Shown piece after piece: positions 18,662-30,456 of a stretch of 32,000 nucleotides of DNA (positions are counted from its first letter, which is position 1; each line of letters begins with the position of its first letter). Source of the DNA: Microcystis aeruginosa NIES-843. GTDB taxonomy: Bacteria; Cyanobacteriota; Cyanobacteriia; Cyanobacteriales; Microcystaceae. The stretch is taken from the NCBI RefSeq assembly GCF_000010625.1, contig NC_010296.1:360001-392000 (forward strand), in the 5' to 3' direction. Under the pieces are notes generated by a model. The model did not search any database. It had not been told where the DNA came from and saw only the letters and a program-made list of their open reading frames with translations. The translations under genes and the position numbers were made by a program.

Positions 18662-18714
18662 TTTAACCTCTCTTTTTTGCTAAATATTTTGATTGCGATC
18701 GCTATCATCGCACC

Positions 18715-18829
18715 CAGGTCAAGCAACAGCCCAACTAGGTGCCAAAGGCGGACAACAAAACAATACATACTACCCCCTCACAACTGTATCTTATGTTACA
18801 TTTTAATAAATCTTTATATTTCTCTCCCC
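18715..18829 (+). repeat. J1 junction element, copy a
   Basis: Matches the consensus GGTCAAGCAAYAGCCCAACCCAA..AAGGCGGA..ACAATACAYA..CCCCCACAAMTGTATCAAAAGCTACAATTTAATAAATNTTT..ATTCCTNTCCC. This is the most diverged copy. Confidence 0.65.
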
Positions 18830-18878
18830 AACCAGCGATTGAGATTTTGGGGTTTTTGGGGAGTTCAAGAGCTTGGAA

Positions 18879-18900
18879 TTGTACAATAAAGTTGTACAAG
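18879..18900. promoter_or_regulatory. Palindromic TGTACA operator upstream of yefM copy 1 (one mismatch)
   Basis: The sequence is ttgtacaa-taaag-ttgtacaag, with a TACAAT -10-like hexamer inside the left half-site. Confidence 0.5.
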
Positions 18901-18915
18901 TCTCCCCTAAAAATC

Positions 18916-19200
18916 ATGTTAAGCAAAGAAACCACCTACTCTCAGGCGAGAATGAATTTAGCCAGTATCTTAGATCAGGTGTGTGACGAATCTCAAATTA
19001 TCGTCATTAAGCGTCGCAATCAGAAAAATGTCGCCTTAATTGCTGAAGATGAGCTTTCCAGTTTATTAGAGTGTGTTTATTTATTGCGCTCGCCAGAAAA
19101 TGCCCAGCGCTTATTTCGCTCTTTAGCATGGACCCAGACAGAAGATGCAACTCCTCAAACATTAGCTGAATTGAAAGAGGAGTTAGGAATTGAGTCCTAA
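18916..19200 (+). CDS. yefM: Phd/YefM-family type II antitoxin (copy 1)
   Basis: 94 aa, MLSKETTYSQARMNLASILDQV..IVIKRRNQKNVALIAEDELSSLLECVYLLRSPENAQRL, typical of YefM. The ORF-track N-terminal extension from 18739 runs over J1 and is rejected. Confidence 0.85.
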   Translation: MLSKETTYSQARMNLASILDQVCDESQIIVIKRRNQKNVALIAEDELSSLLECVYLLRSPENAQRLFRSLAWTQTEDATPQTLAELKEELGIES

Positions 19201-19698
19201 AAGAGAAAATAAGCCAGATAAACCTAAAAACAATCCTATTCATAGTTATTTGCCCGTTTTTAGTCCTGATTTCAAAGCAGATTTAGCTTGGTGGTATCGG
19301 AACGAACCGAAAAAAGGCGATAAAATCTTAGACTTAGTAGCAGATATTTTGGATGCCGATCCGTTTACAGGATTGGGTAGGCCCGAACCTCTTAAGTATA
19401 TTGCTGCCGACACTTGGTCACGACGGATCGACTTAGTGGGACTTAGGCGTTTTCGGTCAGCAAAAAAGGCTCAAACCATTACGGGACAAAGGGTTAACCT
19501 CGATTTATGATTTTCCTTGATATATCTGGGTTTCAGCGATTTTGGGCTTCTCGAAGTAAATCCCAAGCGGGGATTGGAGTTGAAGCTTTTCTCGATTTGT
19601 TTTTTGTCTAAGTCCCATTAGAGCATCGTTTGGTTTATAAAGTCACAGGAAATAAGGTTTATTTTTTACAAGCTCGTTATCATTATCAATCAGGCTAA
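19190..19698 (+). pseudogene. yoeB: Txe/YoeB-family toxin interrupted by a 182-bp MITE (copy 1)
   Basis: The reading frame ...DPFTGLGRPEPLKYIAADTWSRRIDL is broken at 19435 and resumes at 19621 as EHRLVYKVTGNKVYFLQARYHYQSG*. Removing 185 nt restores a 324-nt ORF. The real start may be the TTG at 19250. Confidence 0.85.
19436..19617. mobile_element. 182-bp MITE inside yoeB copy 1
   Basis: The terminal inverted repeats are (g)tgggacttag ... ctaagtccca. It is flanked by a duplicated TTA/TA (19433-35 and 19618-20). It is absent from the otherwise identical copy 2. Confidence 0.85.
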
Positions 19699-20550: not shown

Positions 20551-20557
20551 ACCAAAA

Positions 20558-20650
20558 CAACGCAACCCAACACCAAGAGACACATTCACACATACTACCC
20601 GACAACTGTATCAAAAGCTACAATTTAATAAATCTTTGCATTCCTCTCCC
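20558..20650 (+). repeat. J1 junction element, copy c (left arm shortened)
   Basis: The sequence is aacgcaacccaacaccaagagacacattcacacatactacccgacaactgtatcaaaagctacaatttaataaatctttgcattcctctccc. Confidence 0.7.
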
Positions 20651-20689
20651 TTCAGATTTTGGGGTTTTTGGGGAGTTCAAGAGCTTGGA

Positions 20690-20712
20690 CTTGTACAATA
20701 AAGTTGTACAAG
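20690..20712. promoter_or_regulatory. Perfect 9-bp inverted repeat operator upstream of yefM copy 2
   Basis: The sequence is cttgtacaa-taaag-ttgtacaag. A TACAAT hexamer is embedded and the yefM ATG is 16 nt downstream. Confidence 0.55.
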
Positions 20713-20727
20713 TCTCCCCTAAAAATC

Positions 20728-21012
20728 ATGTTAAGCAAAGAAACCACCTACTCTCAGGCGAGAATGAATTTAGCGAGTCTCTTAGATCAGGTGTGTGACG
20801 AATCCCAAATTATCGTCATTAAGCGTCGCAATCAGAAAAATGTCGCCTTAATTGCTGAAGATGAGCTTTCCAGTTTATTAGAGTGTGTTTATTTATTGCG
20901 CTCGCCAGAAAATGCCCAACGCTTATTTCGCTCTTTAGCATGGGCCCAGACAGAAGATGCAACTCCTCAAACATTAGCTGAATTGAAAGAGGAGTTAGGA
21001 ATTGAGTCCTAA
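20728..21012 (+). CDS. yefM: Phd/YefM-family type II antitoxin (copy 2)
   Basis: 94 aa, differing from copy 1 by a few residues only. Confidence 0.85.
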   Translation: MLSKETTYSQARMNLASLLDQVCDESQIIVIKRRNQKNVALIAEDELSSLLECVYLLRSPENAQRLFRSLAWAQTEDATPQTLAELKEELGIES

Positions 21013-21414
21013 AAGAGAAAATAAGCCAGATAAACCTAAAAACAATTCTATTCATAGTTATTTGCCCGTTTTTAGTCCTGATTTCAAAGCAGATTTAGCT
21101 TGGTGGTATCGGAACGAACCGAAAAAAGGCGATAAAATCTTAGACTTAGTAAGCTTAGACGCATTTAAGTTTCCTACTCGTATCCCTATCTACAAGGCGT
21201 TCCAGGATATTAAAGTGCAATGTAAGTGCGTCTAAGCTTAGCAGATATTTTGGATGCCGATCCGTTTACAGGATTGGGTAGGCCCGAACCTCTTAAGTAT
21301 ATTGCTGCCGACACTTGGTCACGACGGATCGACTTAGAGCATCGTTTGGTTTATAAAGTCACAGGAAATAAGGTTTATTTTTTACAAGCTCGTTATCATT
21401 ATCAATCAGGCTAA
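21002..21414 (+). pseudogene. yoeB: Txe/YoeB-family toxin interrupted by an 87-bp MITE (copy 2)
   Basis: The frame is broken after ..KKGDKILDLV at 21151 and resumes at 21241 (ADILDADPFTGLGRPEPLKY...RYHYQSG*). Removing 89 nt restores the same 324-nt ORF as in copy 1. Confidence 0.85.
21152..21238. mobile_element. 87-bp MITE inside yoeB copy 2
   Basis: The terminal inverted repeats are agcttagacgca(t)ttaag ... (c)ttacgtgcgtctaagct in reverse-complement sense, about 15 bp. It is flanked by a duplicated TA (21150-51 and 21239-40). Confidence 0.85.
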
Positions 21415-21506
21415 ACTCAGACAAACCTATTAAGAACTGTTACAGGAGAAAGGAGACAAAGAACGTATTTTGTCGGTTATTTTTCGGTGAAGTTGGCGGG
21501 GTTGAC

Positions 21507-22007
21507 TTATTGATTTTCATCAATTTCTTGCGCCGATCTTAATAGATATAAATACAATCTTTGATTAACAAGGAAACCTGCTTTTAAAATTAAATCATCC
21601 ATTAATGGCTGAATGGCAGCAATTAATCTTCTTCTTTTGGCAATTAATAAAATACCTAAAATTCCCATAACATTCAAGCCTAAACTCATAGCTTTCTTTC
21701 TGCCAGGGTTCTCATCTATAATGACTCTATCAGCATTTAGAGAAATAGCTAAAGCTATCGTTTCTGATTCTCCTCGGTGTAATTCCTTCTGTAAATCTTT
21801 CAATAATAAACGATCTTTTAACTCTCGCTTTTCTATCCAAGATAGGGTTTGAACTTCAATAGTGCCTGGAACTGAATAACCTAATCCTGTCATTTCTTCA
21901 TAAACAGCTACTGGAATAATAATTGTTCCATAAATATCAGGCAGCAAGTTAAGATAGCCGATAGCAGCTAAACTGGTAATAGGAGAGGTGTTACTAACAA
22001 CAATCAC
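21507..22007 (-). CDS. DUF3368-type PIN-like toxin (full length, catalytic-site variant)
   Basis: 166 aa from a GTG that overlaps the upstream stop (GTGA). It aligns over its full length by eye with the paralog at 23968..24477, but the N-terminal motif reads VVSNTSP instead of VVSDTSP. Confidence 0.7.
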   Translation of the reverse strand: MIVVSNTSPITSLAAIGYLNLLPDIYGTIIIPVAVYEEMTGLGYSVPGTIEVQTLSWIEKRELKDRLLLKDLQKELHRGESETIALAISLNADRVIIDENPGRKKAMSLGLNVMGILGILLIAKRRRLIAAIQPLMDDLILKAGFLVNQRLYLYLLRSAQEIDENQ

Positions 22008-22249
22008 AGATCGCCTAAGCTTTTTAGCGTTTCTAATTCTTGTTGCCAATCTACACTATCATAATTTACACAAATATTCCTCTTGGCGAGTTCTTGACGA
22101 AATTAAATTAAAGATAAGTTGGCAAAATCAGCCGCTTTTGCGCTACTGATATGATAATCTCTAAACATAATGATTGCCAGTTCTAGTCGCAACAGTTGCT
22201 CGTTTTTTCCTGTTGCTTGTATAATTTCGTTGGGAATCACAATAGTCAT
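22004..22249 (-). pseudogene. UPF0175-family antitoxin with premature stop (E49*)
   Basis: Collinear with the intact copy at 26745..26990. Base 22105 is A where the intact copy has C, changing GAA to TAA at codon 49. This is why no ORF appears here in the track. Confidence 0.8.
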
Positions 22250-22342
22250 TGAATTTTACGATATCGATCTGAGAGTTGCCATTATATCACAAAAAACTAC
22301 TTGTGAACAATTAATTAATAAAAATTAATGATTAGAAACACG

Positions 22343-22493
22343 GGCAAAAAAATAAACCCACTCAAGATTGAATGAAGGGGCATTTATGGTATTTTTAGAG
22401 GCAATTTAGCCGAATTTTGTGGTTTTTTTTTCGGTGGATTTAGAGGGTTTTAGTTTACGCTTCAGGGTTGAAGTTGTGGCGAAGAGGTCGAGG
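22343..22493 (-). repeat. J2 junction element copy 1, with a PEP-CTERM tail remnant
   Basis: The minus strand reads ..LFATTSTLKRKLKPSKSTEKKTTKFG* (stop at 22406-08). It is followed by the conserved hairpin and T-run. No upstream body of the gene is present. Confidence 0.7.
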
Positions 22494-22526
22494 ACGATTT
22501 GAGGAAAACTGTTAAATGTGATTAAA

Positions 22527-22751
22527 TAGGGTTTGCGGCAAAAAGTTTTTCCTGGGGGCAGGGTGTGGGGTGTAGGGTGTAGGGTGTAGGGTGTAGGGTT
22601 TTAGCGATTTTGAGGGGGTCAATTACCTAATTTTCAGGGAAAAAGTCCAGGAATTTTCCACCCGATCACTCCCAGATCTGGCACTTTTTGGTTTCCAAAA
22701 AGTCTAAAAGTCTTACCCAACAAGGTTTTTAGATTTATTCAGCAAGCCCTA
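22527..22751. mobile_element. MITE-like dispersed repeat with GGGTGTR x5 heptamer core (copy B)
   Basis: Collinear with 14007-14223. The inverted termini are tagggtttgcgg / cagcaagcccta. The heptamer number differs (5 versus 4). Confidence 0.65.
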
Positions 22752-22800
22752 AATAGAGTACAATGAAAGTTGAAGATACACCTAGTTACCTAGTTAAGCC

Positions 22801-23007
22801 ATGAAACAAGTTCTCAAAAATATTAAGGTATCGGAGATTCCTACACTAATCGCTCAGTTAGGTCTTTCTCCTGAACAAGAAGTTAATCTGACGATTGAGG
22901 AAAATTCAGAAAGTCTTATCTCAATTATGGATAAAGTCGGCAAAAAAGCTCAAGCTAAAGGTTTGACAGAAGATAAACTAACAGAACTATTAGCAGATGA
23001 ATCCTAA
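22801..23007 (+). CDS. Putative antitoxin (68 aa) of the downstream PIN toxin
   Basis: Small acidic ORF overlapping the PIN gene start by 11 nt. Family not recognised. Confidence 0.55.
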   Translation: MKQVLKNIKVSEIPTLIAQLGLSPEQEVNLTIEENSESLISIMDKVGKKAQAKGLTEDKLTELLADES

Positions 23008-23407
23008 TCGAGTTGTTATAGATACCAATGTTTTTATTAGTGCTTTACTCAATCCACTAGGAACACCCAAAAAAGTAATCAATATAGCAGTCAGTCAATT
23101 TACCATTCTCCAGAGCGAGGCAACTTATCAAGAATTGGCAACGAGAATAAGTAAAAAGAAATTTGACAAATATTTAGAAAAAGATGATAGGTTAGATTTC
23201 TTGTCGTCTCTTAAAAATAGGAGCTTATTTGTTGATATATTGCATGAAACGAGAGTGTGTTCCGATTTAGATGATAATAAATTCTTAGAATTAGCTGTAT
23301 CTGGAATGGCACAATACATCATAACAGGCGATAAGGATCTTTTAATTCTCAATACTTATCAAGGGATTCCAATTATTACTCCAGCAGAGTTTTTAGCTAT
23401 TTTCTAG
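22997..23407 (+). CDS. PIN-domain toxin (PIN_3 / TIGR00305-like)
   Basis: 136 aa with VVIDTNVFISALL at the N-terminus and ITGDKDLL near the C-terminus, the hallmark of this PIN subgroup. Confidence 0.75.
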   Translation: MNPNRVVIDTNVFISALLNPLGTPKKVINIAVSQFTILQSEATYQELATRISKKKFDKYLEKDDRLDFLSSLKNRSLFVDILHETRVCSDLDDNKFLELAVSGMAQYIITGDKDLLILNTYQGIPIITPAEFLAIF

Positions 23408-23435
23408 TGTCACTGAGAATTTTTTGAGGGAGGAA

Positions 23436-23536
23436 GGCAAAAAAATAAACCCCTTCAAGTGACTGATTGAAGGGGCATTGATGGTATTTTTAGAGGCAAT
23501 TTAGCCGACTTTTGTGGTTGCTTTTTCGGTGGATTG
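23436..23536 (-). repeat. J2 junction element copy 2
   Basis: The sequence is ggcaaaaaaataaaccccttcaag..gaaggggcattgatggtatttttagaggcaatttagccgacttttgtggttgctttttcggtggatt. Confidence 0.7.
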
Positions 23537-23544
23537 GGAGGGGT

Positions 23545-23612
23545 TTATTTGGCAACTGATAATAAAGCCTCTTCTATTGGCTTTGGTAACTCAATAGCAT
23601 AAAACCGATTCT
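23545..23612 (-). pseudogene. 3' remnant (about 22 codons) of a paralog of the 27190..27429 gene
   Basis: The minus strand reads NRFYAIELPKPIEEALLSVAK*, compared with NRFHPIELPKPIEEALLSMAN* in the intact gene. It has the same junction to J2. Confidence 0.65.
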
Positions 23613-23640
23613 TAATGTGTAAAATGTGTAAGAGGAAGAG

Positions 23641-23690
23641 ACGCAAAAAATAAACCTGCTCAACTGACTAAATGAAGGGGGTTATGATAT
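23641..23690 (-). repeat. J2 junction element copy 3 (hairpin part only)
   Basis: The sequence acgcaaaaaataaacctgctcaactgactaaatgaagggggttatgat resembles the A-run plus hairpin portion of J2. Confidence 0.45.
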
Positions 23691-23725
23691 CATTCCAATA
23701 GGAAGGGATAGATAGGGTTATAGCC

Positions 23726-23971
23726 ATGAGTATTGATATCTCCGATGAAATTCTCAGTGCAACACGCATGACTGAAGCTGAGATGAGGCAGGAAATTGCG
23801 GTCATGCTCTTTCAAAAAGAGAAGCTCACCCTTGCTCAAGCGAGTCGATTTGCAGGAATGAATCGTATTGCTTTTCAACACCTACTTGCAAGTCGTCAAA
23901 TTCCGGTACACTACGATGTCGAAGATTTTGAACAGGATATTAAGAACTTGCGGGAGATGGGAAGATTGTGA
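23726..23971 (+). CDS. UPF0175-family antitoxin
   Basis: 81 aa, MSIDISDEILSATRMTEAEMRQEIAVMLFQKEKLTLAQASRFAGMNRIAFQHLLASRQIPVHYD. It has a 4-nt overlap with the downstream PIN-like gene. Confidence 0.75.
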   Translation: MSIDISDEILSATRMTEAEMRQEIAVMLFQKEKLTLAQASRFAGMNRIAFQHLLASRQIPVHYDVEDFEQDIKNLREMGRL

Positions 23972-24477
23972 TTGTTGTCAGTGATACATCCCCTATCAAC
24001 AATCTTGCCGCCATTAATCAACTTCATCTGCTACAACAACTTTACGAAATAGTTTTTATTCCTGAAGCAGTTTATCGAGAATTAACTGAGCCTGATTTTC
24101 CAGTAGCAGGTTCAATAGAAGTCCAAACCTTAGATTGGATTCAAACTCGAACGGTAACTAACCGCACGGTGATTAAAGCTCTTGCTGATGAACTAGATAA
24201 GGGAGAAGCTGAGGCTATTGCTTTAGCACTTGAGTTGGGAGCAGATCAAGTTTTGATTGATGAGCGTCGTGGTCGTAGAATTGCTGCTAGACTTAATCTT
24301 CGATACACAGGAATTCTGGGCATTTTAGTTGAGGCGAAGAATCGAGGGTTAATCTCTGAGGTGAAACCCTTGCTAGACGCTTTGATTGATCGAGCAGGAT
24401 TTTGGGTTGCTGCACCTTTATACAGCAGTGTTTTACAGATTGTTGATGAAGAAAAAAATAAACCCCCTCAAGATTGA
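23968..24477 (+). CDS. DUF3368-type PIN-like toxin
   Basis: 169 aa with MIVVSDTSPINNLAAI and GEAEAIALA..DERRGR motifs. The last ~8 codons (EEKNKPPQD*) are encoded by J2 copy 4. Confidence 0.75.
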   Translation: MIVVSDTSPINNLAAINQLHLLQQLYEIVFIPEAVYRELTEPDFPVAGSIEVQTLDWIQTRTVTNRTVIKALADELDKGEAEAIALALELGADQVLIDERRGRRIAARLNLRYTGILGILVEAKNRGLISEVKPLLDALIDRAGFWVAAPLYSSVLQIVDEEKNKPPQD

Positions 24478-24536
24478 AGAAGGGGCATTGATGGTATTTT
24501 TAGAGGCAATTTAGCCTACTTTTGTGGTTTCTTTTT
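24451..24536 (-). repeat. J2 junction element copy 4
   Basis: The sequence is gaaaaaaataaaccccctcaagattgaagaaggggcattgatggtatttttagaggcaatttagcctacttttgtggtttcttttt. Confidence 0.7.
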
Positions 24537-24578
24537 AATGGCGATACAATGAAGTTACCACCACTTAATGAAACCTCT

Positions 24579-24887
24579 ATGAGCCTCATCCTTCCCTCTG
24601 AACTTCTGCAAACAGTACAAATGACTGAAGCTCAAATGCTCACGGAAATCGCTATCATGCTCTATCAGCAGCAACGTCTTCAATTTGAACAAGCAGCCGA
24701 ACTAACGGGAATGGCGATCGATGATTTCTACCAATTGCTAGTATCGCGTAATATCCTCACTCCACCCACGGACCCCGACGACGAACCAAAAGAACTCATC
24801 CTCACCAGTCTTCGTATTTCTCTTCAGCAAGTTAAAGAGGGCAAAGTACATCCCATCTCTGAACTGTGGGATGGCATAGATGACTGA
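24579..24887 (+). CDS. Antitoxin with a UPF0175-like N-terminal domain (partner of the RelE-like toxin)
   Basis: MSLILPSELLQTVQMTEAQMLTEIAIMLYQQQRLQFEQAAELTGM aligns with the UPF0175 proteins of this window. The upstream part of ORF 24522 lies in J2 and is rejected. Confidence 0.6.
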   Translation: MSLILPSELLQTVQMTEAQMLTEIAIMLYQQQRLQFEQAAELTGMAIDDFYQLLVSRNILTPPTDPDDEPKELILTSLRISLQQVKEGKVHPISELWDGIDD

Positions 24888-25233
24888 AGGAATCCCCTCT
24901 ATTAAAATCCTTTTCTCTGATGAATTCAAGGATCGACTTCGCATCCTCGCCAAACGCTATCGGAGCATTCGTACTGATATACAACCCCTAATTGATGACC
25001 TTCAGATAGGCAAATTCATCGGCGATAAAATACCAGGAATAGGCTACACTGTTTTTAAAGTTCGCCTCAAAAACAGCGATATTCAAAAGGGCAAAAGTAG
25101 CGGCTATCGTGTTATCTATCAACTTAAAGACAATAGTTATGTTTTGATGCTCCTCATCTATGCCAAATCTGACCAAACGGACATCCCAGCGCAGCAAATT
25201 CAAGACATCATTAATAAGTTTGACAGTTTTTAG
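24880..25233 (+). CDS. RelE/ParE-superfamily type II toxin
   Basis: 117 aa. FKVRLKNSDIQKGKSSGYRVIYQL....LMLLIYAKSDQTDI is the typical RelE/HigB-like core. Its ATG overlaps the antitoxin stop. Confidence 0.7.
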   Translation: MTEGIPSIKILFSDEFKDRLRILAKRYRSIRTDIQPLIDDLQIGKFIGDKIPGIGYTVFKVRLKNSDIQKGKSSGYRVIYQLKDNSYVLMLLIYAKSDQTDIPAQQIQDIINKFDSF

Positions 25234-25249
25234 AAGTATTAATAGATGC

Positions 25250-25284
25250 CAAAAATAAACCTCCTCAAGATTGAATTAAGGGGG
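25250..25284 (-). terminator. Rho-independent terminator of the PEP-CTERM gene (part of J2 copy 5, 25249-25350)
   Basis: The minus strand reads CCCCCTTAA-ttcaatc-TTGAGGAGG followed by TTTATTTTTGG. Confidence 0.6.
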
Positions 25285-25309
25285 CATTTATGGTATTTTT
25301 AGAAGCAAT

Positions 25310-26029
25310 TTATCCTATTTCTGTGGTTTCTTTTTCAGTGGATTGAGAGGACTTTAGTTTGCGTTTGAGGGTTGAAGCTGCGCCGAGAGTGCCGAGGGCA
25401 AGGAGACTGAGGGTTGAGGTGGGTTCAGGGACTGAGGTTGGTGCGTTGCTTCCTGTCAAAGTTCCTTGCAATCTTACTCCTTCTAGGAAGTTATCTGTTG
25501 GATCAATAATCCGAATGGTTAGTTGATTCTGTCCTTGATTGAGAAGTGCAGCCGTGGAAGAACCTGCGGCAAGAGAAAATGGTGTTAAACTACCCCAAGC
25601 GCCAGCACTTAGTGAGGCAATCTGTTGCCCATTGAGAGCCAAAATACCAGTATCATCTACCGCCCAACTCCCTGTAATAGAGACTGTCGAGAGATCGACC
25701 CCAGTCAGATCAAAGGCACGAGTATAAGTTCCAAGTCCATTAGCTGGTGTATTGGCATCTCTAGCAATCCAAGTGGAATTAGGCCCATTAGCCAACCATC
25801 CACCAAACCAATTTGGATTGCCCGGATAGACTGTTTGAGCCGGAGTAGTAGTTGAACTGCCTTGAGGGTTATCTACAGTCCAGTGAGCGTCAGATTGTGC
25901 TCCTGTTGTGATTAAGGTATTGGAAGCATCTAATCCTGTTGCTAAATTAATAGTGATCGCTTGAGCTTGAGTCGGAAAAAATAAAAAAGGAATGACTAGA
26001 GTAGAAACGGCGGCTAAGTTTTTTAGCAT
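25310..26029 (-). CDS. Secreted PEP-CTERM sorting-domain protein
   Basis: It has a signal peptide (MLKNLAAVSTLVIPFLFFPTQAQA). The C-terminal VPEPTSTLSLLALGTLGAASTLKRKLK gives the PEP motif, a TM helix and a basic cluster, followed by a 13-aa tail. Confidence 0.85.
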   Translation of the reverse strand: MLKNLAAVSTLVIPFLFFPTQAQAITINLATGLDASNTLITTGAQSDAHWTVDNPQGSSTTTPAQTVYPGNPNWFGGWLANGPNSTWIARDANTPANGLGTYTRAFDLTGVDLSTVSITGSWAVDDTGILALNGQQIASLSAGAWGSLTPFSLAAGSSTAALLNQGQNQLTIRIIDPTDNFLEGVRLQGTLTGSNAPTSVPEPTSTLSLLALGTLGAASTLKRKLKSSQSTEKETTEIG

Positions 26030-26085
26030 TCTAACCTCTCTTTTTTGCTAAATATATTGTTAAGTGCGATCGCCCTTTAGCCATT

Positions 26086-26198
26086 AGGTGAAGCAACAAC
26101 CCAACCCAACACCAAAGGCGGATAGTAGAACAATACACACTCCCCCCCCACAAATGTATCAAAAGCTACAATTTAATAAATATTTGCATTCCTATCCC
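26086..26198 (+). repeat. J1 junction element, copy d
   Basis: The sequence is aggtgaagcaacaacccaacccaacaccaaaggcggatagtagaacaatacacactccccccccacaaatgtatcaaaagctacaatttaataaatatttgcattcctatccc. Confidence 0.7.
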
Positions 26199-26237
26199 TT
26201 CAGATTTTGGGGTTTTTGGGGAGTTCAAGAGCTTGGA

Positions 26238-26260
26238 CTTGTACAATAAAGTTGTACAAG
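26238..26260. promoter_or_regulatory. Perfect inverted-repeat operator upstream of yefM copy 3
   Basis: The sequence is cttgtacaa-taaag-ttgtacaag, with TACAAT at 26242-26247. Confidence 0.55.
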
Positions 26261-26275
26261 TCTCCCCTAAAAATC

Positions 26276-26560
26276 ATGTTAAGCAAAGAAACCACCTACT
26301 CTCAGGCGAGAATGAATTTAGCCAGTATCTTAGATCAGGTGTGTGACGAATCTCAAATTATCGTCATTAAGCGTCGCAATCAGAAAAATGTGGCGTTAAT
26401 TGCTGAAGATGAGCTTTCCAGTTTATTAGAGTGTGTTTATTTATTGCGATCTCCGGAAAATGCCCAACGCTTATTTCGCTCTTTAGCATGGACCCAGACA
26501 GAAGATGCAACTCCTCAAACATTAGCTGAATTGAAAGAGGAGTTAGGAATTGAGTCCTAA
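26276..26560 (+). CDS. yefM: Phd/YefM-family type II antitoxin (copy 3)
   Basis: 94 aa, near-identical to copies 1 and 2. Confidence 0.85.
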   Translation: MLSKETTYSQARMNLASILDQVCDESQIIVIKRRNQKNVALIAEDELSSLLECVYLLRSPENAQRLFRSLAWTQTEDATPQTLAELKEELGIES

Positions 26561-26597
26561 AAGAGAAAATAAGCCAGATAAACCTAAAAACAATCCT
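26550..26597 (+). pseudogene. yoeB: 16-codon 5' stub of yoeB (copy 3)
   Basis: Homology with copies 1 and 2 stops after ..aaaaacaatcct. The sequence then jumps into the inverted PIN-like gene. Confidence 0.8.
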
Positions 26598-26748
26598 CAA
26601 TAGTACCTGGAACTGAATAACCTAATCCTGTCATTTCTTCATAAACAGCTACTGGAATAATAATTGTTCCATAAATATCATGGAGCAAGTTAAGATAGCC
26701 GATAGCAGCTAAACTGGTAATAGGAGAGGTGTTACTAACAACAATCAC
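26598..26748 (-). pseudogene. 5' fragment (about 50 codons) of the DUF3368 PIN-like toxin
   Basis: Collinear with 21857-22007 of the full-length copy. The 3' two-thirds are deleted. Confidence 0.8.
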
Positions 26749-26990
26749 AGATCACCTAAAGTTTTTAAGGTTTCTAATTCTTGTTGCCAATCTACACTAT
26801 CATAATTTACGCAAATATTCCTCTTGGCGATTTCTTGACGAAATTCAATTAAAGATAAGTTGGCAAAATCAGCCGCTTTTGCGCTACTGATATGATAATC
26901 TCTAAACATAATGATTGCCAGTTCTAGTCGCAACAGTTGCTCGTTTTTTCCTGTTGCTTGTATAATTTCGTTGGGAATCACAATAGTCAT
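26745..26990 (-). CDS. UPF0175-family antitoxin (intact copy)
   Basis: 81 aa, MTIVIPNEIIQATGKNEQLLRLELAIIMFRDYHISSAKAADFANLSLIEFRQEIAKRNICVNYD. Confidence 0.75.
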   Translation of the reverse strand: MTIVIPNEIIQATGKNEQLLRLELAIIMFRDYHISSAKAADFANLSLIEFRQEIAKRNICVNYDSVDWQQELETLKTLGDL

Positions 26991-27082
26991 TGAATTTTAC
27001 GATATTAAACTGAGAGCCATTATTGTATCACAAAAACTACTTGCGAGCAATTAATTAAGAAAAATTAATGATTGGAAACACG

Positions 27083-27189
27083 GGCAAAAAAATAAACCCA
27101 CTCAAAATTGAATGAAGGAGCATTTATAGTATTTTTAGAGGCAATTTAGCCTACTTTTGTGGTTTCTTTTTCGGTGGATTGGCAGGATT
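27083..27189 (-). repeat. J2 junction element copy 6
   Basis: The sequence is ggcaaaaaaataaacccactcaaaattgaatgaaggagcatttatagtatttttagaggcaatttagcctacttttgtggtttctttttcggtggatt. It abuts the stop of the 27190 gene. Confidence 0.7.
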
Positions 27190-27429
27190 TTAGTTGGCCA
27201 TTGATAACAATGCCTCTTCTATTGGCTTTGGTAACTCAATAGGATGAAACCGATTCACAGAAAAAGCGTAATCTTCACCACTTTCATCAATAACCCGAAT
27301 TAGACCGTTTATTTCTGCTGTCTCATCAGGGACAACGCGGTATATTTTGCCCACCTCTAGTGAAGCTTCGTAGCCTTCATTATTGAGACAAACTGCGAAC
27401 TTATTTGTTGGAGATGACTCTATTTTCAT
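27190..27429 (-). CDS. Small conserved hypothetical protein (79 aa), second gene of an unclassified two-gene module
   Basis: MKIESSPTNKFAVCLNNEGYEASLEVGKIYRVVPDETAEINGLIRVIDESGEDYAFSVNRFHPIELP. The ATG is 2 nt after the upstream stop. A decayed second copy of its 3' end lies at 23545-23612. Confidence 0.6.
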   Translation of the reverse strand: MKIESSPTNKFAVCLNNEGYEASLEVGKIYRVVPDETAEINGLIRVIDESGEDYAFSVNRFHPIELPKPIEEALLSMAN

Positions 27430-27431
27430 GG

Positions 27432-27668
27432 TCAATCTAGAAACGGTAACTTGAGCTTAAATTCTTTTTTGCCGATGCCATGAGCTTCATACCAATGGAC
27501 TTCAGCTAACCTTACTATACCATTGGGAAGCTGAACTTGGGCTATGCCCTTTAATTTTCTCCATTTACCTTTGCCATACTGTTTTTGCAACCGTTCCCGA
27601 TTACGAATTCCTGTTCCTATGGCAATAATCTCGATATTCGTGATATCGCTGATAATCTCAAAGTCCAC
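27432..27668 (-). CDS. Small basic hypothetical protein (78 aa), first gene of the module
   Basis: MDFEIISDITNIEIIAIGTGIRNRERLQKQYGKGKWRKLKGIAQVQLPNGIVRLAEVHWYEAHGIGKKEFKLK. No named family recognised. Confidence 0.6.
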   Translation of the reverse strand: MDFEIISDITNIEIIAIGTGIRNRERLQKQYGKGKWRKLKGIAQVQLPNGIVRLAEVHWYEAHGIGKKEFKLKLPFLD

Positions 27669-27732
27669 GATCGAGCAAGCAATCTTAAAGAGTGGCCTTT
27701 CACTATAGCATCTATTGCCAAAAAAGAGATAT

Positions 27733-27768
27733 AAAAAAACAAAACCCCCTCAAGATTGATTGAAGGGG
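27733..27768 (-). terminator. Rho-independent terminator (part of J2 copy 7, 27733-27830)
   Basis: The minus strand has a 9-bp stem, CCCCTTCAA-tcaatc-TTGAGGGGG, followed by TTTTGTTTTTTTAT. Confidence 0.65.
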
Positions 27769-27793
27769 TATTTATGGTATTTTTAGAAACAAT

Positions 27794-28179
27794 TTAGCCG
27801 ACTTTTGTGGTTTCTTTTTCAGTGGATTTAGAGGGTTTTAGTTTGCGTTTGAGGGTTGAAGCTGCTCCTAGTGTGCCGAGGGTTAATAAGCTGATGACTG
27901 TAGAGGGTTCGGGTATACATTCTCCAACATCGAATGCAGGTACTAGGGCTTGTGATACATAGACTATTGAGTTAGGGTCACCCGTAAAAACTGATAAGTC
28001 ATATCCAGGAAGAAGGTTTGGAAGATCAGCTAACGTGGATGTTACATTCAAGAAGGAAGTATAAATTGTACCCGTTTTTCTCCCTATAAATAATTCATCA
28101 GAAAGAGGCACAATTTGAGGATCAATAGCATTAAAACCTGTTTGTAAAGGAACGTCGTCTGGATTACCAGATGGATTTA
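27794..28179 (-). pseudogene. C-terminal half of a PEP-CTERM protein gene split by IS630 copy 2
   Basis: Encodes ..NPSGNPDDVPLQ...CIPEPSTVISLLTLGTLGAASTLKRKLKPSKSTEKETTKVG*. The first ~16 codons of ORF 27794..28228 are IS sequence. Confidence 0.85.
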
Positions 28180-29213
28180 TAGCAATTCTCTGACTTATGA
28201 GGTACAGTAGCAACAGTGAGTAAACCAATTGCGAATATCTTTTTGAGTAACTTCTAACATAGCCAATTCAATCCCTTCTATTAAGTCTTTGTAAGTTCTC
28301 GCCTTCAGTTTTCTTAACGTCGCTTTCACTTTTGACCAAAAGTTTTCAATAGGAGAGAATTCGGGAGAATAAGGAGGTAAATAGATGAGTCTAGCTTTTT
28401 CTTGTTCGATTATTTCTCTGACCATTTCTCCGAGATGAATCTTGGCGTTATCCATGATCAGACAGTCTCCTTCTTTAATTTTTGGCAGCACTTCCTTTAG
28501 AATAAATCCTTCAAATGTTACCGCATCCACTGCACCGTATATGTTGACTGATGCGACAACTTTTTCTAAGCTTATAGCACTAATTATTGAAATATTTCTC
28601 CCTCTTTTTTGTGGTTTTCTTCCCCGAGCTCTTCGGCCAATTAAGGCTCTAGCATAGAGTCTCAAAAGGGCTAAATTTACCCCCGATTCATCGATGAAAA
28701 TTAGTTTTGATGCCTCAATTTCCCGAACTTCTGACCAGTATTCCACTCTTTTTTGCTGTACCCTGTCACTTTCTTTTTCCGCCGCGTGTAGTGTTTTTTT
28801 TTGAAACTGTAATTGAGTTTTTGCGTAAGCCGCCCCAGGGTGGCTCTACTGACTTTCACCTGTGTCTTTTCATACAGTAAGTCCGATAATTCTTCGAGAG
28901 TTGCATCATTGTTAGCTTCGATGATTTCTATTAAAATTATCAGTTGTTCACTATTTAACTTGGTTGGCGGACTTCCCCCTTGCGGACGAGGACGGATATC
29001 TCCTGTTTCTTTATGTTGCTTCAATAACTTCTGAATAAAGCTTTTAGCCACGTCAAATCTCTGGGCTAGTCCTCGAATGGAAATTTTTTCTTTCTTCCAG
29101 ACATCGATAATTTTTTGGCGAAAATCTACGGAATAGGGTCTCATAGGAAGCCGGTAAGTTCTATTATTTGTCTATTTGCTTTCCATTGTACCTCATAGCT
29201 CCAAGAATTGCTA
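28180..29213 (-). mobile_element. IS630-family insertion sequence (copy 2, apparently intact)
   Basis: The ~27-bp imperfect terminal inverted repeats are tagcaattct..tatgaggtaca at both ends. A TA duplication flanks it (28178-79 and 29214-15). Two overlapping transposase ORFs lie inside. Confidence 0.85.
28195..29144 (-). CDS. IS630/Tc1-mariner-type transposase made from two frames (-1 shift at an A9 run)
   Basis: OrfA (HTH, 28701..29144) and OrfB (DDE, 28195..28746) overlap. The -1 frame is open from the A9 run (T9 on the plus strand, 28794-28802), giving ..LNYSFKKK/TLHAAEKESDRVQQKRVEYWSEV.. Confidence 0.8.
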
Positions 29214-29546
29214 TAAGTCAAGAGACCAAACATCAGTCAACACAACTTGGCTATTAGGATCAACATTTCCTAGAGTTACTTTGATATCTATATATGTACT
29301 TGCGAATACTGGGACGGGAATTTTAATTGTAAAATCTCTGCTGTCTTTAATCCCACATTTAAAGCAAAGACCAAATTTTCCTAGGTCAACTCCCAAAAAA
29401 GTCTCCAAAGTAACTTTCTTACTTTCAAATACAAATCCTTTAAAATCTGGAAAAGGTCCAAGTTTTAAAGCAGATGCCGGTTGAGCTAGTAAGGCAAAGG
29501 ATACTGTACCTAAAAGACTACCTACAAAGACATTTCTACGATTCAT
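29214..29546 (-). pseudogene. N-terminal half of the PEP-CTERM protein gene split by IS630 copy 2
   Basis: It begins MNRRNVFVGSLLGTVSFALLAQPASA (signal peptide) and continues to ...VLTDVWSLDL, then runs into a TAG created by the IS end. The real start is ATG 29546, not 29645. Confidence 0.85.
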
Positions 29547-29592
29547 AAAATAAGCCTCAAATTTGTATGTAAGTGTGACAAAAACACAATAG

Positions 29593-29704
29593 ATCGAGCA
29601 ACAACCCAACCCAAGACACAAGGCAGACAATAGAACAATACACATTCCCCCCCCACAACTGTATTAAAAGCTACAATTTAATAAAGTCTTTATATTTTTC
29701 TCCC
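29593..29704 (+). repeat. J1 junction element, copy e
   Basis: The sequence is gatcgagcaacaacccaacccaagacacaaggcagacaatagaacaatacacattccccccccacaactgtattaaaagctacaatttaataaagtctttatatttttctccc. Confidence 0.7.
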
Positions 29705-30331: not shown

Positions 30332-30456
30332 CTCGCAGTCAGGTCAAGCAATAGCCCAACCCAAGACAGAAGGAGGACAGTGAAAAATACACATTTTTTA
30401 CTCTAAGACTGTAGCCTAAGCTACAATTTAATAAATATTTACATTCCTCCTTTCTC
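30332..30456 (+). repeat. J1 junction element, copy f (island boundary next to asnS)
   Basis: The sequence is ctcgcagtcaggtcaagcaatagcccaacccaagacagaaggaggacag..aaaaatacacat..gactgtagcctaagctacaatttaataaatatttacattcctcc. No plus-strand gene follows it. Confidence 0.65.

What the first reader, a model, noticed from the sequence alone, without database searches (positions are those of the whole stretch)
22343..27830. J2: the 3' tail plus terminator of PEP-CTERM genes reused seven times as a junction behind unrelated genes on both strands
The copies lie at 22343, 23436, 23641 (partial), 24451, 25249, 27083 and 27733. In two copies (25249 and 27733) the element is the genuine 3' end of a PEP-CTERM gene, with codons for ..KSTEKETT(E/K)(I/V)G*, then about 25 nt, then a 9-bp-stem terminator and T-run. 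In copy 1 only a headless tail (..STLKRKLKPSKSTEKKTTKFG*) remains. In copies 2 and 6 the same DNA follows the stop of the unrelated 79-aa gene. In copies 2, 4 and 5 it lies directly downstream of plus-strand TA operons, and copy 4 even supplies the last 8 codons of the PIN gene 23968..24477. The element has an outer inverted repeat (AAAAAATAAACC ... GGTTTCTTTTT) around the inner hairpin, so it is a structured unit of about 95 bp. The nucleotide conservation of a protein tail in non-coding contexts suggests selection at the DNA or RNA level. Possible roles are a bidirectional terminator, a recombination hotspot, or an attC-like folded site.
Basis: seen in the sequence. Interest (0 to 1): 0.65.

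Follow-up and report, generated by a model that had tools for sequence, protein, structure and literature searches.

The report
Shared gene-tail repeat that shuffles cassettes
A 85-180 bp repeat derived from the 3' end and terminator of Microcystis PEP-CTERM genes separates small gene cassettes (mostly toxin-antitoxin pairs) in a variable chromosomal island, and strain comparisons show that cassettes are swapped at a ~40-bp core inside it, like an integron with no integrase in sight.

Summary
The window holds six full J2 copies, one right half (23641) and one left half (~21464), all in the same orientation. The core 24-mer occurs 6 times against 0 expected.

The organism is Microcystis. J2 is genus-wide: about 80 copies were found in 38 fetched loci. 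It is absent from other genera, phages and plasmids. About 23 copies are the true 3' end of different PEP-CTERM genes: the last codons ..KRKLKPSKSTEKETTKVG*, a 25-nt A-rich spacer, then a hairpin and T-run. The other copies are headless tails, each cut at a point specific to its cassette.

Across genomes, 35 left-flank classes and 22 right-flank classes are combined freely. Polymorphisms at or left of -19 follow the left flank. Those at or right of +27 follow the right flank. Those from -17 to +23 follow neither. So the exchanges fall inside a ~40-bp core.

There is no integrase, no attC-like fold, no fixed MITE ends and no Rfam match. Headless copies diverge twice as fast as genuine ones.

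Best reading: J2 is a family-wide 3' terminator module that also serves as a portable homology patch. Recombination at it, probably homologous, shuffles cassettes. The recombination-hotspot idea is supported. The attC idea and the "95-bp structured unit" idea are not.

The parts
21464..21508 (-). c0: degenerate left half of J2 (about -50 to -3) directly behind the DUF3368/PIN gene 21507-22049. It is fused near the stop-codon position to the 3' flank of the YoeB cassette.
   Evidence: Repeat family D5; alignments. In L021 and L046 the asnS flank joins here, at window 21467.
22347..22497 (-). c1: headless J2, homology -89 to +62. It keeps ..TSTLKRKLKPSKSTEKKTTKFG* without a PEP motif or gene body. 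Left-flank class 6, right-flank class 9 (head of the UPF0175/PIN cassette).
23440..23553 (-). c2: J2, homology -50 to +62, joined to a remnant of the 3' end of the 81-aa gene (23553-23620). On its T-run side lies the end of the plus-strand PIN_3 TA operon 22801-23407.
   Evidence: terminator-like site 23476-23449.
23641..23680 (-). c3: right half of J2 only (hairpin and T-run, about +28 to +62).
   Evidence: Repeat family D7, 83% to the c2 hairpin; alignment; orthologous partial hits in L027, L007 and L008.
24453..24536 (-). c4: minimal J2, -23 to +62. On the plus strand it supplies the last ~8 codons and the stop of PIN/DUF3368 gene 23968-24477. It ends 12 nt before the ATG (24549) of the RelN-like/RelE-like TA operon.
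   Evidence: terminator-like site 24482-24463.
25251..25432 (-). c5: genuine 3' end of the intact PEP-CTERM gene 25310-26029. It comprises the PEP motif, TM helix, KRK, a 15-aa extension, the stop, a spacer and the terminator.
   Evidence: PEP_CTERM TIGR02595 and PF07589 hits cover residues 199-224 of 239, so the last 15 aa lie beyond the domain..
27087..27204 (-). c6: J2, homology -56 to +62, fused to the 3' end of the 81-aa gene 27190-27435 (cassette B, with the 78-aa gene 27432-27668).
   Evidence: Part of the segmental duplication with c1 (D1, 91%).
27735..27913 (-). c7: 3' end of a PEP-CTERM gene whose body is split by an IS630-family element (C-terminal part 27794-28228, N-terminal part 29211-29645).
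   Evidence: inverted repeat I1.
27773..27813 (-). Exchange core, shown for c7: positions -17 to +23 around the stop codon (AAACCACAAAAGT.GGCTAAATTG..TCTAAAAATACCAT). Its polymorphisms are linked to neither flank.
27734..27769 (-). Intrinsic-terminator hairpin (10 pairs) plus T-run of c7. The same feature is present in every full copy.
   Evidence: RNA fold; 53 variants, mean -13.3 kcal/mol against -4.7 for shuffles.
22801..23407 (+). Cassette G: 68-aa antitoxin-like ORF plus a PIN_3 toxin, between c1 and c2.
23726..24477 (+). Cassette F: UPF0175 antitoxin plus a DUF3368/PIN toxin, between c3 and c4.
24549..25233 (+). Cassette E: UPF0175/RelN-like antitoxin plus a RelE/ParE-like toxin, between c4 and c5. 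In FBCC-A1114 cassette B occupies this slot.
27190..27668 (-). Cassette B: 78-aa and 81-aa genes with no family match, between c7 and c6.

Best explanation
J2 is the common 3' module of a large, fast-diversifying family of Microcystis PEP-CTERM genes. It consists of the last codons (a 15-aa extension LKPSKSTEKETTKVG beyond the sorting domain), the stop codon, a 25-nt A-rich spacer, and a GC-rich hairpin with a T-run that should terminate minus-strand transcripts.

In the variable island downstream of asnS, and at other loci, cassettes are separated by J2 copies that all point the same way. The cassettes are TA pairs, a 78/81-aa gene pair and PEP-CTERM genes. Each non-PEP cassette carries a truncated J2 whose coding-side breakpoint is specific to that cassette. 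That breakpoint was made once, by an illegitimate join that replaced a PEP-CTERM gene body.

Because all copies share a nearly identical ~40-55 bp core, they act as portable patches of homology. Recombination between them deletes, inserts, replaces and reorders cassettes. It is most likely RecA-type homologous recombination or gene conversion, either within a chromosome or with DNA taken up from other strains.

Shown: the anatomy, the genus-wide distribution, the free combination of flanks, and the position of the exchange zone.

Inferred: that the exchange is homologous rather than enzyme-specific, that the hairpin terminates transcription, and that the TA cassettes persist because they counteract repeat-mediated deletion.
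For: Distribution and identity:
- There are 6 core matches in the window against 0 expected.
- The core pattern occurs in 38 Microcystis loci (two of them filed under misbinned MAGs) among 185,579 species genomes.
- nhmmer finds about 80 copies in those loci.
- 23 copies end full-length PEP-CTERM genes with unrelated bodies. The rest are headless.

Boundaries and shuffling:
- Left boundaries fall in discrete classes (-96, -92, -89, -73, -61, -57, -56, -50, -46, -36, -23). Each class has its own constant flank.
- 35 left classes and 22 right classes are combined freely. The 81-aa-gene junction meets 5 different right flanks, the RelN junction 6, and the head of cassette B 7 left flanks.
- Divergence at -60..-21 is halved only in pairs that share the left flank. 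At +36..+62 it is halved or better only in pairs that share the right flank. At -20..+35 it is the same in all categories.
- The per-site permutation test gives the same picture.
- The pattern holds when only the window, two complete genomes and isolate drafts are used.

A worked example: in FBCC-A1114 the order is F-J2-B-J2-D, where the window has F-J2-E-J2-D. Both orders E-J2-B (L008, L019) and B-J2-E (L021) exist.

Other support:
- All copies share one orientation in each of the 21 multi-copy loci.
- The hairpin is kept in 53 variants, and a terminator is predicted on the minus strand.
- Headless copies are twice as diverged as genuine ones.
- No recombinase is found in the window or recurrently in the J2 loci.
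Against: - The core is short. Perfect identity between typical pairs runs only ~12-27 nt, which is marginal for RecA-dependent exchange (inference from established MEPS values).
- Within-genome copies are no more alike than between-genome copies (8.3% against 8.0%). So there is no signal of intragenomic gene conversion.
- The core (-23..+35) is more conserved than the adjacent coding region even in headless copies. Homology-driven exchange alone does not fully explain that.
- No experimental 3'-end or recombination data exist.
- Many loci come from MAGs or short-read drafts, where repeats can cause chimeric joins. The check with complete genomes rests on only 18 copies.
- Only 8-kb stretches around exact pattern matches were sampled. 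Diverged copies and distant recombinase genes would be missed.
Confidence: 0.6

Rival explanations
1. Passive scars. J2 copies are only what is left of PEP-CTERM genes destroyed by insertions of TA cassettes. The terminator is kept because neighbouring genes need it. J2 itself plays no part in the rearrangements.
For: - Headless copies show relaxed constraint: 9.5% core divergence against 5.1%, and 12.3% against 5.6% in the former codons.
- Truncation points are variable and cassette-specific.
- The hairpin is retained everywhere.
- Half copies c0 and c3 have breakpoints at different positions, which indicates illegitimate joins.
Against: - The same cassette-specific left junction occurs next to up to 6 different right flanks, and the reverse also holds.
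- The linkage switch lies inside the conserved core. Independent insertions would not recreate identical left junctions or place the switch there.
- Uniform orientation in 21 of 21 multi-copy loci is not expected from random scars.
Confidence: 0.17
2. Integron-like site-specific system. J2 is the recombination site of an unidentified recombinase encoded elsewhere in the genome, which excises and inserts cassettes.
For: - The array architecture resembles a sedentary chromosomal integron: repeats in one orientation, 650-1900 bp spacing, enrichment in TA cassettes, and shuffled cassette order between strains.
- A ~40-bp core is conserved more strongly than its surroundings.
- The outer repeat contains AAC...GTT triplets.
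Against: - There is no integrase or resolvase in the 32-kb window, and none recurs among 65 ORF families of at least 200 aa around the J2 loci.
- The element does not fold as an attC-like ssDNA hairpin (z-scores +0.6 to -2.0 across RNA and DNA folds).
- The sequence fits neither RYYYAAC nor GTTRRRY.
- The element splits between the two neighbouring cassettes instead of staying with one.
- Core polymorphisms are linked to neither side, so there is no single crossover point.
- The half sites c0 and c3 break at different positions.
Confidence: 0.1
3. Functional RNA element. The conserved core is a 3'-UTR regulatory site or a 3'-derived small RNA (an A-rich single strand plus a terminator hairpin) shared by the PEP-CTERM regulon. 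Its conservation reflects RNA function, and the recombination is incidental. This reading can coexist with the best explanation.
For: - The most conserved stretch spans the stop codon and the non-coding spacer.
- Genuine genes keep it at 5% divergence although their bodies are unrelated.
- The anatomy, an A-rich region followed by a terminator, is typical of 3'-derived sRNAs (own knowledge).
Against: - No Rfam match, even at E-values up to 5.
- No conserved structure beyond the terminator, and no covariation.
- Headless copies decay.
- No expression data.
Confidence: 0.1
4. MITE. J2 is a ~85-95 bp non-autonomous transposable element with terminal inverted repeats AAAAAGAAACC / GGTTTATTTTT that inserted behind many genes, including PEP-CTERM genes.
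For: - The minimal copy (c4 class, -23..+62) starts and ends exactly at the inverted repeat.
- Microcystis is rich in MITEs (PMC2779907, found). A real 89-bp MITE lies in this window at 21149-21237.
Against: - The left end differs between classes (-23 to -120) instead of being fixed.
- No target-site duplications are seen at the junctions.
- One 'TIR' is Lys/Glu/Thr codons and the other is the terminator T-run. They do not covary when the T-run changes (listing).
- Copies occur only in arrays of one orientation.
- J2 is absent from phages and plasmids.
Confidence: 0.03

Closest known systems
Chromosomal integron cassette arrays with homogeneous attC sites (e.g. Vibrio cholerae repeats, VCR) and integrase-less attC clusters (CALINs)
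   Same: - Arrays of short cassettes separated by a ~100-bp repeat in one orientation.
- Many TA cassettes.
- Cassette content and order differ between strains.
- The repeat overlaps the 3' end of the upstream ORF.
   Different: - No IntI.
- No attC hairpin or core sites.
- Exchange happens in the middle of the repeat, so each half travels with a different neighbour.
- Genes lie on both strands and have their own promoters.
- The repeat is recognisably the 3' end of one gene family.
Neisseria intergenic mosaic elements (dRS3/RS repeats) and 'minimal mobile elements' exchanged by homologous recombination after transformation
   Same: Short conserved repeats between genes serve as homology for exchanging the intervening genes, without any dedicated recombinase in the element.
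   Different: - J2 derives from a coding 3' end plus a terminator.
- It forms ordered arrays.
- Its cassettes carry cassette-specific truncated copies.
152-bp direct repeats fencing a ParE/ParD-like TA module in M. aeruginosa PCC 7806 (Klemencic et al. 2021, PMC7935541)
   Same: Same genus, and a TA module bounded on both sides by a direct repeat.
   Different: - It is a different sequence (it contains GGGCGAAGCATTCGGA inverted repeats).
- Only one locus was described.
- It has no link to PEP-CTERM genes and no comparative shuffling analysis.
Intrinsic (Rho-independent) terminators, including bidirectional ones at convergent genes
   Same: A GC-rich hairpin followed by a T-run, with an A-rich tract upstream that is complementary to the T-run. 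It sits between convergent genes (PEP-CTERM on the minus strand, TA operons on the plus strand).
   Different: - The A-tract is 9 nt away from the stem, and the plus-strand tail fails a simple terminator rule.
- Ordinary terminators are not conserved at 90-95% across dozens of unrelated genes.
REP/BIME and similar extragenic palindromic repeats
   Same: A repeated hairpin-containing element at gene ends, which can act as a terminator or stabiliser and as a recombination substrate.
   Different: - J2 includes coding sequence.
- It has far fewer copies per genome. The fetched loci held 2-10 per genome, and because only stretches around exact pattern matches were read this is a lower bound.
- It is clustered in arrays.
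- No RAYT-type transposase is implicated.

Membership tests
Integron attC site / cassette array | An integron integrase (intI) and attI next to the array | tested here: not met
   The Pfam scan of all large ORFs of the window finds only housekeeping genes, TA genes and two IS630 transposases. No recombinase family recurs among 65 ORF families of at least 200 aa in the J2 loci.
Integron attC site / cassette array | An imperfect palindrome (R''-L''...L'-R') that folds as a single-stranded hairpin spanning the whole site | tested here: not met
   ssDNA folds of three copies on both strands show only the terminator hairpin, with z-scores +0.1 to -2.0. RNA folds agree.
Integron attC site / cassette array | Core sites RYYYAAC and GTTRRRY | tested here: not met
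   By inspection, the outer repeat reads AATAAAC ... GTTTCTT (plus strand) or AAGAAAC ... GTTTATT (minus strand). The AAC/GTT triplets are present, but the adjacent positions do not fit.
Integron attC site / cassette array | Crossover at the 3' end of the site, so that the site stays with its upstream cassette | tested here: not met
   Positions -60..-21 follow the left flank and +36..+62 follow the right flank. The switch lies at -17..+23.
Integron attC site / cassette array | Repeats in one orientation at cassette-size spacing | tested here: met
   Spacings are 1095, 1010, 799, 1836 and 648 bp in the window. Orientation is uniform in all 21 multi-copy loci.
MITE | Fixed ends with terminal inverted repeats in every copy | tested here: not met
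   The left boundary varies from -23 to -120 in discrete classes. The inverted repeat is present but is not the boundary in most copies.
MITE | Target-site duplication flanking the element | tested here: not met
   No duplicated bases are seen at the junctions listed.
Intrinsic transcription terminator | A GC-rich stem-loop immediately followed by a U-run on the transcribed strand | tested here: met
   Sites are predicted on the minus strand at c2, c4 and c7. The hairpin is kept in 53 variants, with mean -13.3 kcal/mol against -4.7 for shuffles.
Intrinsic transcription terminator | Transcript 3' ends at the U-run in vivo, on one or both strands | not testable with these tools
   No transcriptome data were available. 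The plus-strand tail CATTTATGGTATTTTT fails the scan rule.
PEP-CTERM sorting domain (TIGR02595 / PF07589) | A C-terminal PEP motif, hydrophobic helix and basic cluster | tested here: met
   c5 gene: residues 199-224 of 239 match. c7 gene: TIGR02595 at 23.7 bits against a cut-off of 16. 23 family members end ..PEP..LALGTLGAASTLKRK... The 15-aa extension after KRK lies outside the model.
PEP-CTERM sorting domain (TIGR02595 / PF07589) | A cognate exosortase in the genome | not tested
Known RNA families (Rfam 15) | A match to a curated covariance model | tested here: not met
   No hit at gathering score. Only chance-level hits at E-values of 1.3-3.2.

The most novel reading that the evidence does not exclude
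J2 arrays are a cyanobacterial counterpart of the integron. In this reading, a dedicated recombination activity not yet identified and encoded elsewhere recognises the conserved ~40-bp core spanning the stop codon and 3' spacer of PEP-CTERM genes. It uses that core to capture, excise and reorder cassettes. This would make surface-protein genes and TA or defence modules interchangeable units of one cassette system.
Probability: 0.1. Interest if true: 0.85.

Novelty: new variant of a known kind. Interest (0 to 1): 0.55.

Why it matters
Microcystis genomes are known for extreme plasticity and for very large numbers of TA systems, but the routes by which small accessory genes are exchanged are poorly defined. 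Three things follow if a gene-family 3' end plus terminator really acts as the shared junction.

First, it gives a concrete and testable mechanism for part of that plasticity. The test needs only outward-facing PCR or long reads across J2 arrays.

Second, it shows that integron-like cassette arrays can arise without an integrase, from ordinary homology embedded in terminators.

Third, it links the diversification of exported PEP-CTERM surface proteins, which are candidates for colony matrix and phage or grazer interaction, with TA modules that may stabilise the array against repeat-mediated deletion.

There is also a practical point. J2 is a likely cause of assembly breaks and chimeric joins in Microcystis MAGs.

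Tried and rejected
- **attC-like site.** Rejected after the ssDNA and RNA folds, the linkage analysis and the absence of an integrase.
- **MITE.** Rejected because the left ends vary and there are no target duplications.
- **Known RNA family.** None found.
- **Consensus structure.** RNAalifold on 35 variants predicted only a 3-pair stem around the stop codon, with no covariation. MAFFT misaligned the hairpins because their loop lengths differ. I therefore folded each variant separately.
- **Phage or plasmid origin.** No blastn match in either collection. The one viral-contig pattern hit (L048) is a chance AT-rich match with no tail or hairpin.
- **Insertion into the J2 hairpin.** In six loci I suspected that a mobile element had inserted into the hairpin (the flank GTTAGTTTAGAGTGCGG...). 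In L027 this flank is the 3' end and own terminator of a convergent OprB-type porin gene, and the 3' arm of J2 is degenerate there.
- **Intragenomic concerted evolution.** Not seen. Same-genome divergence is 8.3% and different-genome divergence is 8.0%.
- **Literature.** Searches for the sequence, the peptide tail, Microcystis with PEP-CTERM, and Microcystis repeats, cassettes or TA found no description of J2.
- **Plus-strand mini-ORF.** MVFLEAI* with an upstream AAGGGG lies in the core, but it is not kept in c5, so I did not pursue it.
- **Searches not run.** I ran no protein homology search and no metagenome scan, because the DNA scan had already answered the distribution question.

Full report

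Yes. Reading 22000-28200 and the repeat search show six full copies and one partial copy at the stated places, all in one orientation. The core GGTATTTTTAGAGGCAATTTAGCC, with up to 3 mismatches, occurs 6 times against 0.00 expected in shuffles.

Local alignment to a family consensus gives these homology spans:

| Copy | Span | Note |
|---|---|---|
| c1 | 22347-22497 | headless tail |
| c2 | 23440-23553 | behind a remnant of the 81-aa gene |
| c3 | 23641-23680 | hairpin and T-run only |
| c4 | 24453-24536 | minimal copy |
| c5 | 25251-25432 | end of an intact PEP-CTERM gene |
| c6 | 27087-27204 | behind the 81-aa gene |
| c7 | 27735-27913 | end of a disrupted PEP-CTERM gene |

- c5 ends an intact 239-aa PEP-CTERM gene.
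- c7 ends a PEP-CTERM gene that is split by an IS630-family element (inverted repeat I1).
- c1 is a headless tail.
- c2 and c6 follow the 81-aa gene, of which c2 keeps only a remnant.
- c4 supplies the last codons and the stop of the DUF3368/PIN gene.
- c2, c4 and c5 abut plus-strand TA operons: PIN_3, UPF0175/DUF3368, and RelN-like/RelE-like.

One caveat applies. c1 and c6 sit at the end of a segmental duplication (20556-22455 ~ 26095-27195), so they are not independent copies.

**2. Anatomy**

Read on the minus strand, a genuine copy runs:

..VPEPxxxLSLLALGTLGAASTLKRK | LKPSKSTEKETTKVG* | ATTGCTTCTAAAAATACCATAAATG | CCCCTTCA-loop-TGAGGGGG | TTTATTTTTT

The PEP-CTERM models end at KRK, so the last 15 residues are an extension outside the sorting domain. 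The hairpin plus T-run is called as a minus-strand terminator at c2, c4 and c7.

Across 53 distinct sequence variants the hairpin is retained. Mean folding energy is -13.3 kcal/mol against -4.7 for shuffles, and several alternative stems and loops occur.

Nothing else folds consistently. Whole-element RNA and ssDNA folds have z-scores between +0.6 and -2.9, and the outer inverted repeat appears in the minimum-energy structure of only some copies. RNAalifold finds no covarying structure. Rfam has no match.

**3. Where else is it?**

I scanned one genome per species (185,579 species) with the degenerate core pattern. This returned 47 stretches.
- 36 are labelled Microcystis.
- Two more (L022, L023) carry true J2 copies but are filed under other taxa. 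L023 matches a Microcystis contig in J2 and flanks (same nhmmer score; same flanks), so these are misbinned.
- The other nine hits show no J2 by profile search and are chance matches.

A profile search of the fetched loci finds about 80 copies. J2 is absent from the phage and plasmid collections, and the one viral-contig hit is a chance match. J2 is therefore a genus-wide Microcystis element, present at two or more distant chromosomal sites per genome.

**4. What are the copies?**

About 23 of 75 analysed copies are the 3' ends of full-length PEP-CTERM genes. Their bodies are unrelated, but they share the last ~40 codons at the nucleotide level.

The others are headless. Their homology to the family consensus stops at discrete points: -96, -92, -89, -73, -61, -57, -56, -50, -46, -36 and -23 relative to the stop codon. 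Each point is tied to one constant left flank.
- -50/-56 is always the 81-aa gene.
- -23 is always the start of the RelN-like/RelE-like operon.
- -89 is always the tail that follows the heptamer-repeat region.

So each left junction arose once and has since been propagated together with its cassette. The right boundary is the end of the T-run in nearly all copies. That is simply where family-wide homology ends.

**5. Shuffling**

I clustered 45 nt on each side of every copy. This gives 35 left classes and 22 right classes, and they are combined almost freely.
- The 81-aa-gene junction is followed by five different right flanks.
- The RelN junction is followed by six.
- The head of cassette B is preceded by seven different left flanks.

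Fourteen of the 16 left classes seen more than once have two or more right partners.

Here is a clean example. In the complete genome FBCC-A1114 (L027 and L046 are contiguous) the order is F-J2-B-J2-D. The window has F-J2-E-J2-D, and homology breaks inside the two J2 copies. Both orders, E-J2-B (L008, L019) and B-J2-E (L021), exist.

In L021 and L046 the asnS flank joins the YoeB cassette directly at window position 21467, the c0 half-site. The window therefore carries 8.9 kb of extra cassettes there.

**6. Where is the exchange?**

I compared three kinds of pairs: pairs that share only the left flank, pairs that share only the right flank, and pairs that share neither.

| Positions | Share left only | Share right only | Share neither |
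|---|---|---|---|
| -60..-21 | 7-16% | same as neither | 11-25% |
| -20..+35 | 2-13% | 2-13% | 2-13% |
| +36..+62 | same as neither | 6-13% | 18-36% |

Per-site permutation tests agree. Sites at or left of -19 are linked to the left flank (z up to 4.9). Sites at or right of +27 are linked to the right flank (z up to 8). Sites from -17 to +23 are linked to neither.

So the exchange zone is a ~40-bp core around the stop codon and spacer, not the end of the element. The same pattern holds when only the window, two complete genomes and isolate drafts are used. This argues against MAG chimeras as the sole cause.

**7. Constraint**

Headless copies are about twice as diverged in the core as genuine gene ends: 9.5% against 5.1%. 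In the former codons the figures are 12.3% against 5.6%. They therefore behave as decaying remnants and not as a separately selected structured element.

Copies within one genome are no more alike than copies from different genomes (8.3% against 8.0%). So there is no sign of purely intragenomic homogenisation. The pool looks genus-wide.

**8. Mechanism**

No integrase or resolvase is in the window. None recurs among 65 families of ORFs of at least 200 aa around J2 in other genomes, where the flanks are ordinary core genes.

Three further points argue against an integron-like or other single-site mechanism: the missing attC fold, the mid-element linkage switch, and half-sites (c0, c3) broken at different positions. 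The MITE reading fails on variable left ends and absent target duplications.

The best-supported reading is this. J2 is a family-wide 3' terminator module that doubles as a portable homology patch. Recombination between copies deletes, inserts, replaces and reorders cassettes. It is probably homologous, either within a chromosome or with incoming DNA.

Integration of a J2-bearing circle or fragment by a single or double crossover would also explain why all copies in each of the 21 multi-copy loci share one orientation. The abundance of TA cassettes fits stabilisation of a repeat-rich, deletion-prone array. That parallel with chromosomal integrons comes from my own knowledge.

What remains inferred:
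- the enzymology, because the core is short for RecA;
- terminator activity in vivo;
- why the core is more conserved than the adjacent codons even in headless copies.

**9. Comparison and novelty**

The architecture works like a sedentary chromosomal integron, but it fails four of the five defining tests for attC/integron membership. It is closer in principle to repeat-mediated cassette exchange, such as the Neisseria mosaic and minimal mobile elements (own knowledge).

A different direct repeat fencing a TA module has been reported in M. aeruginosa PCC 7806 (PMC7935541). I found no description of J2, its sequence or the KSTEKETTKVG tail in the searchable literature.

I rate it a new variant of a known kind and of moderate interest. 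The most novel reading that is not excluded, a dedicated but unidentified recombination system acting on the core, gets about 10%.

Noticed in passing
window 20556-20700, 26082-26250, 29587-29700, 30371-30448 (and a diverged copy at ~18694-18800): A second junction repeat. It is the upstream region of PEP-CTERM genes (..AACAACCCAACCCAACACCAA..CCCCCCCCACAA..AAGCTACAATTTAATAAATATTTGCATTCCT). On its other side it also precedes the YefM/YoeB operons and marks the asnS-proximal edge of the island. The 31-mer is found 3 times against 0 expected. Cassettes thus seem bounded by two kinds of family-derived repeat, one from the 5' side and one from the 3' side.
   Followed up: partly
window 21149-21237: An 89-bp insertion inside the YoeB toxin gene, absent from the orthologues in L046, L021, L008 and L009. 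It has perfect 14-bp terminal inverted repeats (TAAGCTTAGACGCA / TGCGTCTAAGCTTA) and an apparent TA duplication. This looks like an IS630/mariner-type MITE, and it splits the toxin ORF into 21002-21235 and 21226-21414.
   Followed up: partly
window 28229-29200 and 17431-18625: Two IS630-family elements (HTH_32 plus DDE_3). The first has 40-nt imperfect inverted ends (28174-28213 / 29180-29219) and interrupts the PEP-CTERM gene that ends in c7. The second is split and lies at the other edge of the island.
   Followed up: partly
window 20556-22455 vs 26095-27195; also 18694-19510: A segmental duplication of the block YefM - (YoeB) - DUF3368/PIN - UPF0175 - J2. The second copy lacks 21050-21856, so YoeB is gone and the PIN is truncated to 54 aa. 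A third YefM/YoeB copy lies at 18739-19510. An orphan antitoxin and a truncated toxin suggest ongoing decay of the TA cassettes.
   Followed up: partly
window 22554-22602: A tandem heptamer array (GGGTGTA)n, i.e. CCCTACA on the minus strand, directly upstream of the c1 headless tail. In L027 the surrounding stretch, about 22532-22750, is missing.
   Followed up: no
L024 (whole 4525-bp contig, MAG M131): This contig is a circular permutation of the window segment between c1 and c6 (4740 bp). It starts and ends inside the same PIN gene (window 24339 and 24110) and contains a C-J2-G junction. It could reflect a tandem duplication, an excised circle, or an assembler walking through the collapsed H/C repeat. 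These cannot be told apart here.
   Followed up: partly
window 24487-24510 and the equivalent place in other copies (plus strand): The J2 core encodes a mini-ORF on the plus strand, ATG GTA TTT TTA GAG GCA ATT TAG (MVFLEAI*), 5 nt after AAGGGG. It is not preserved in c5, where TAG is TAT and the frame reads on. It is probably fortuitous.
   Followed up: no
window 27190-27668 (minus strand): The 78-aa and 81-aa overlapping gene pair (cassette B) has no Pfam or NCBIfam match, yet it is one of the most frequently shuffled cassettes. It is found next to J2 in at least eight loci. It may be an undescribed TA-like pair.
   Followed up: no
L022 and L023: Contigs filed under a Bacteroidales MAG and a Crocinitomicaceae MAG carry typical Microcystis J2 copies and PEP-CTERM tails. 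L023 has the same J2 and flanking sequence as L039. They are likely binning contaminants.
   Followed up: partly
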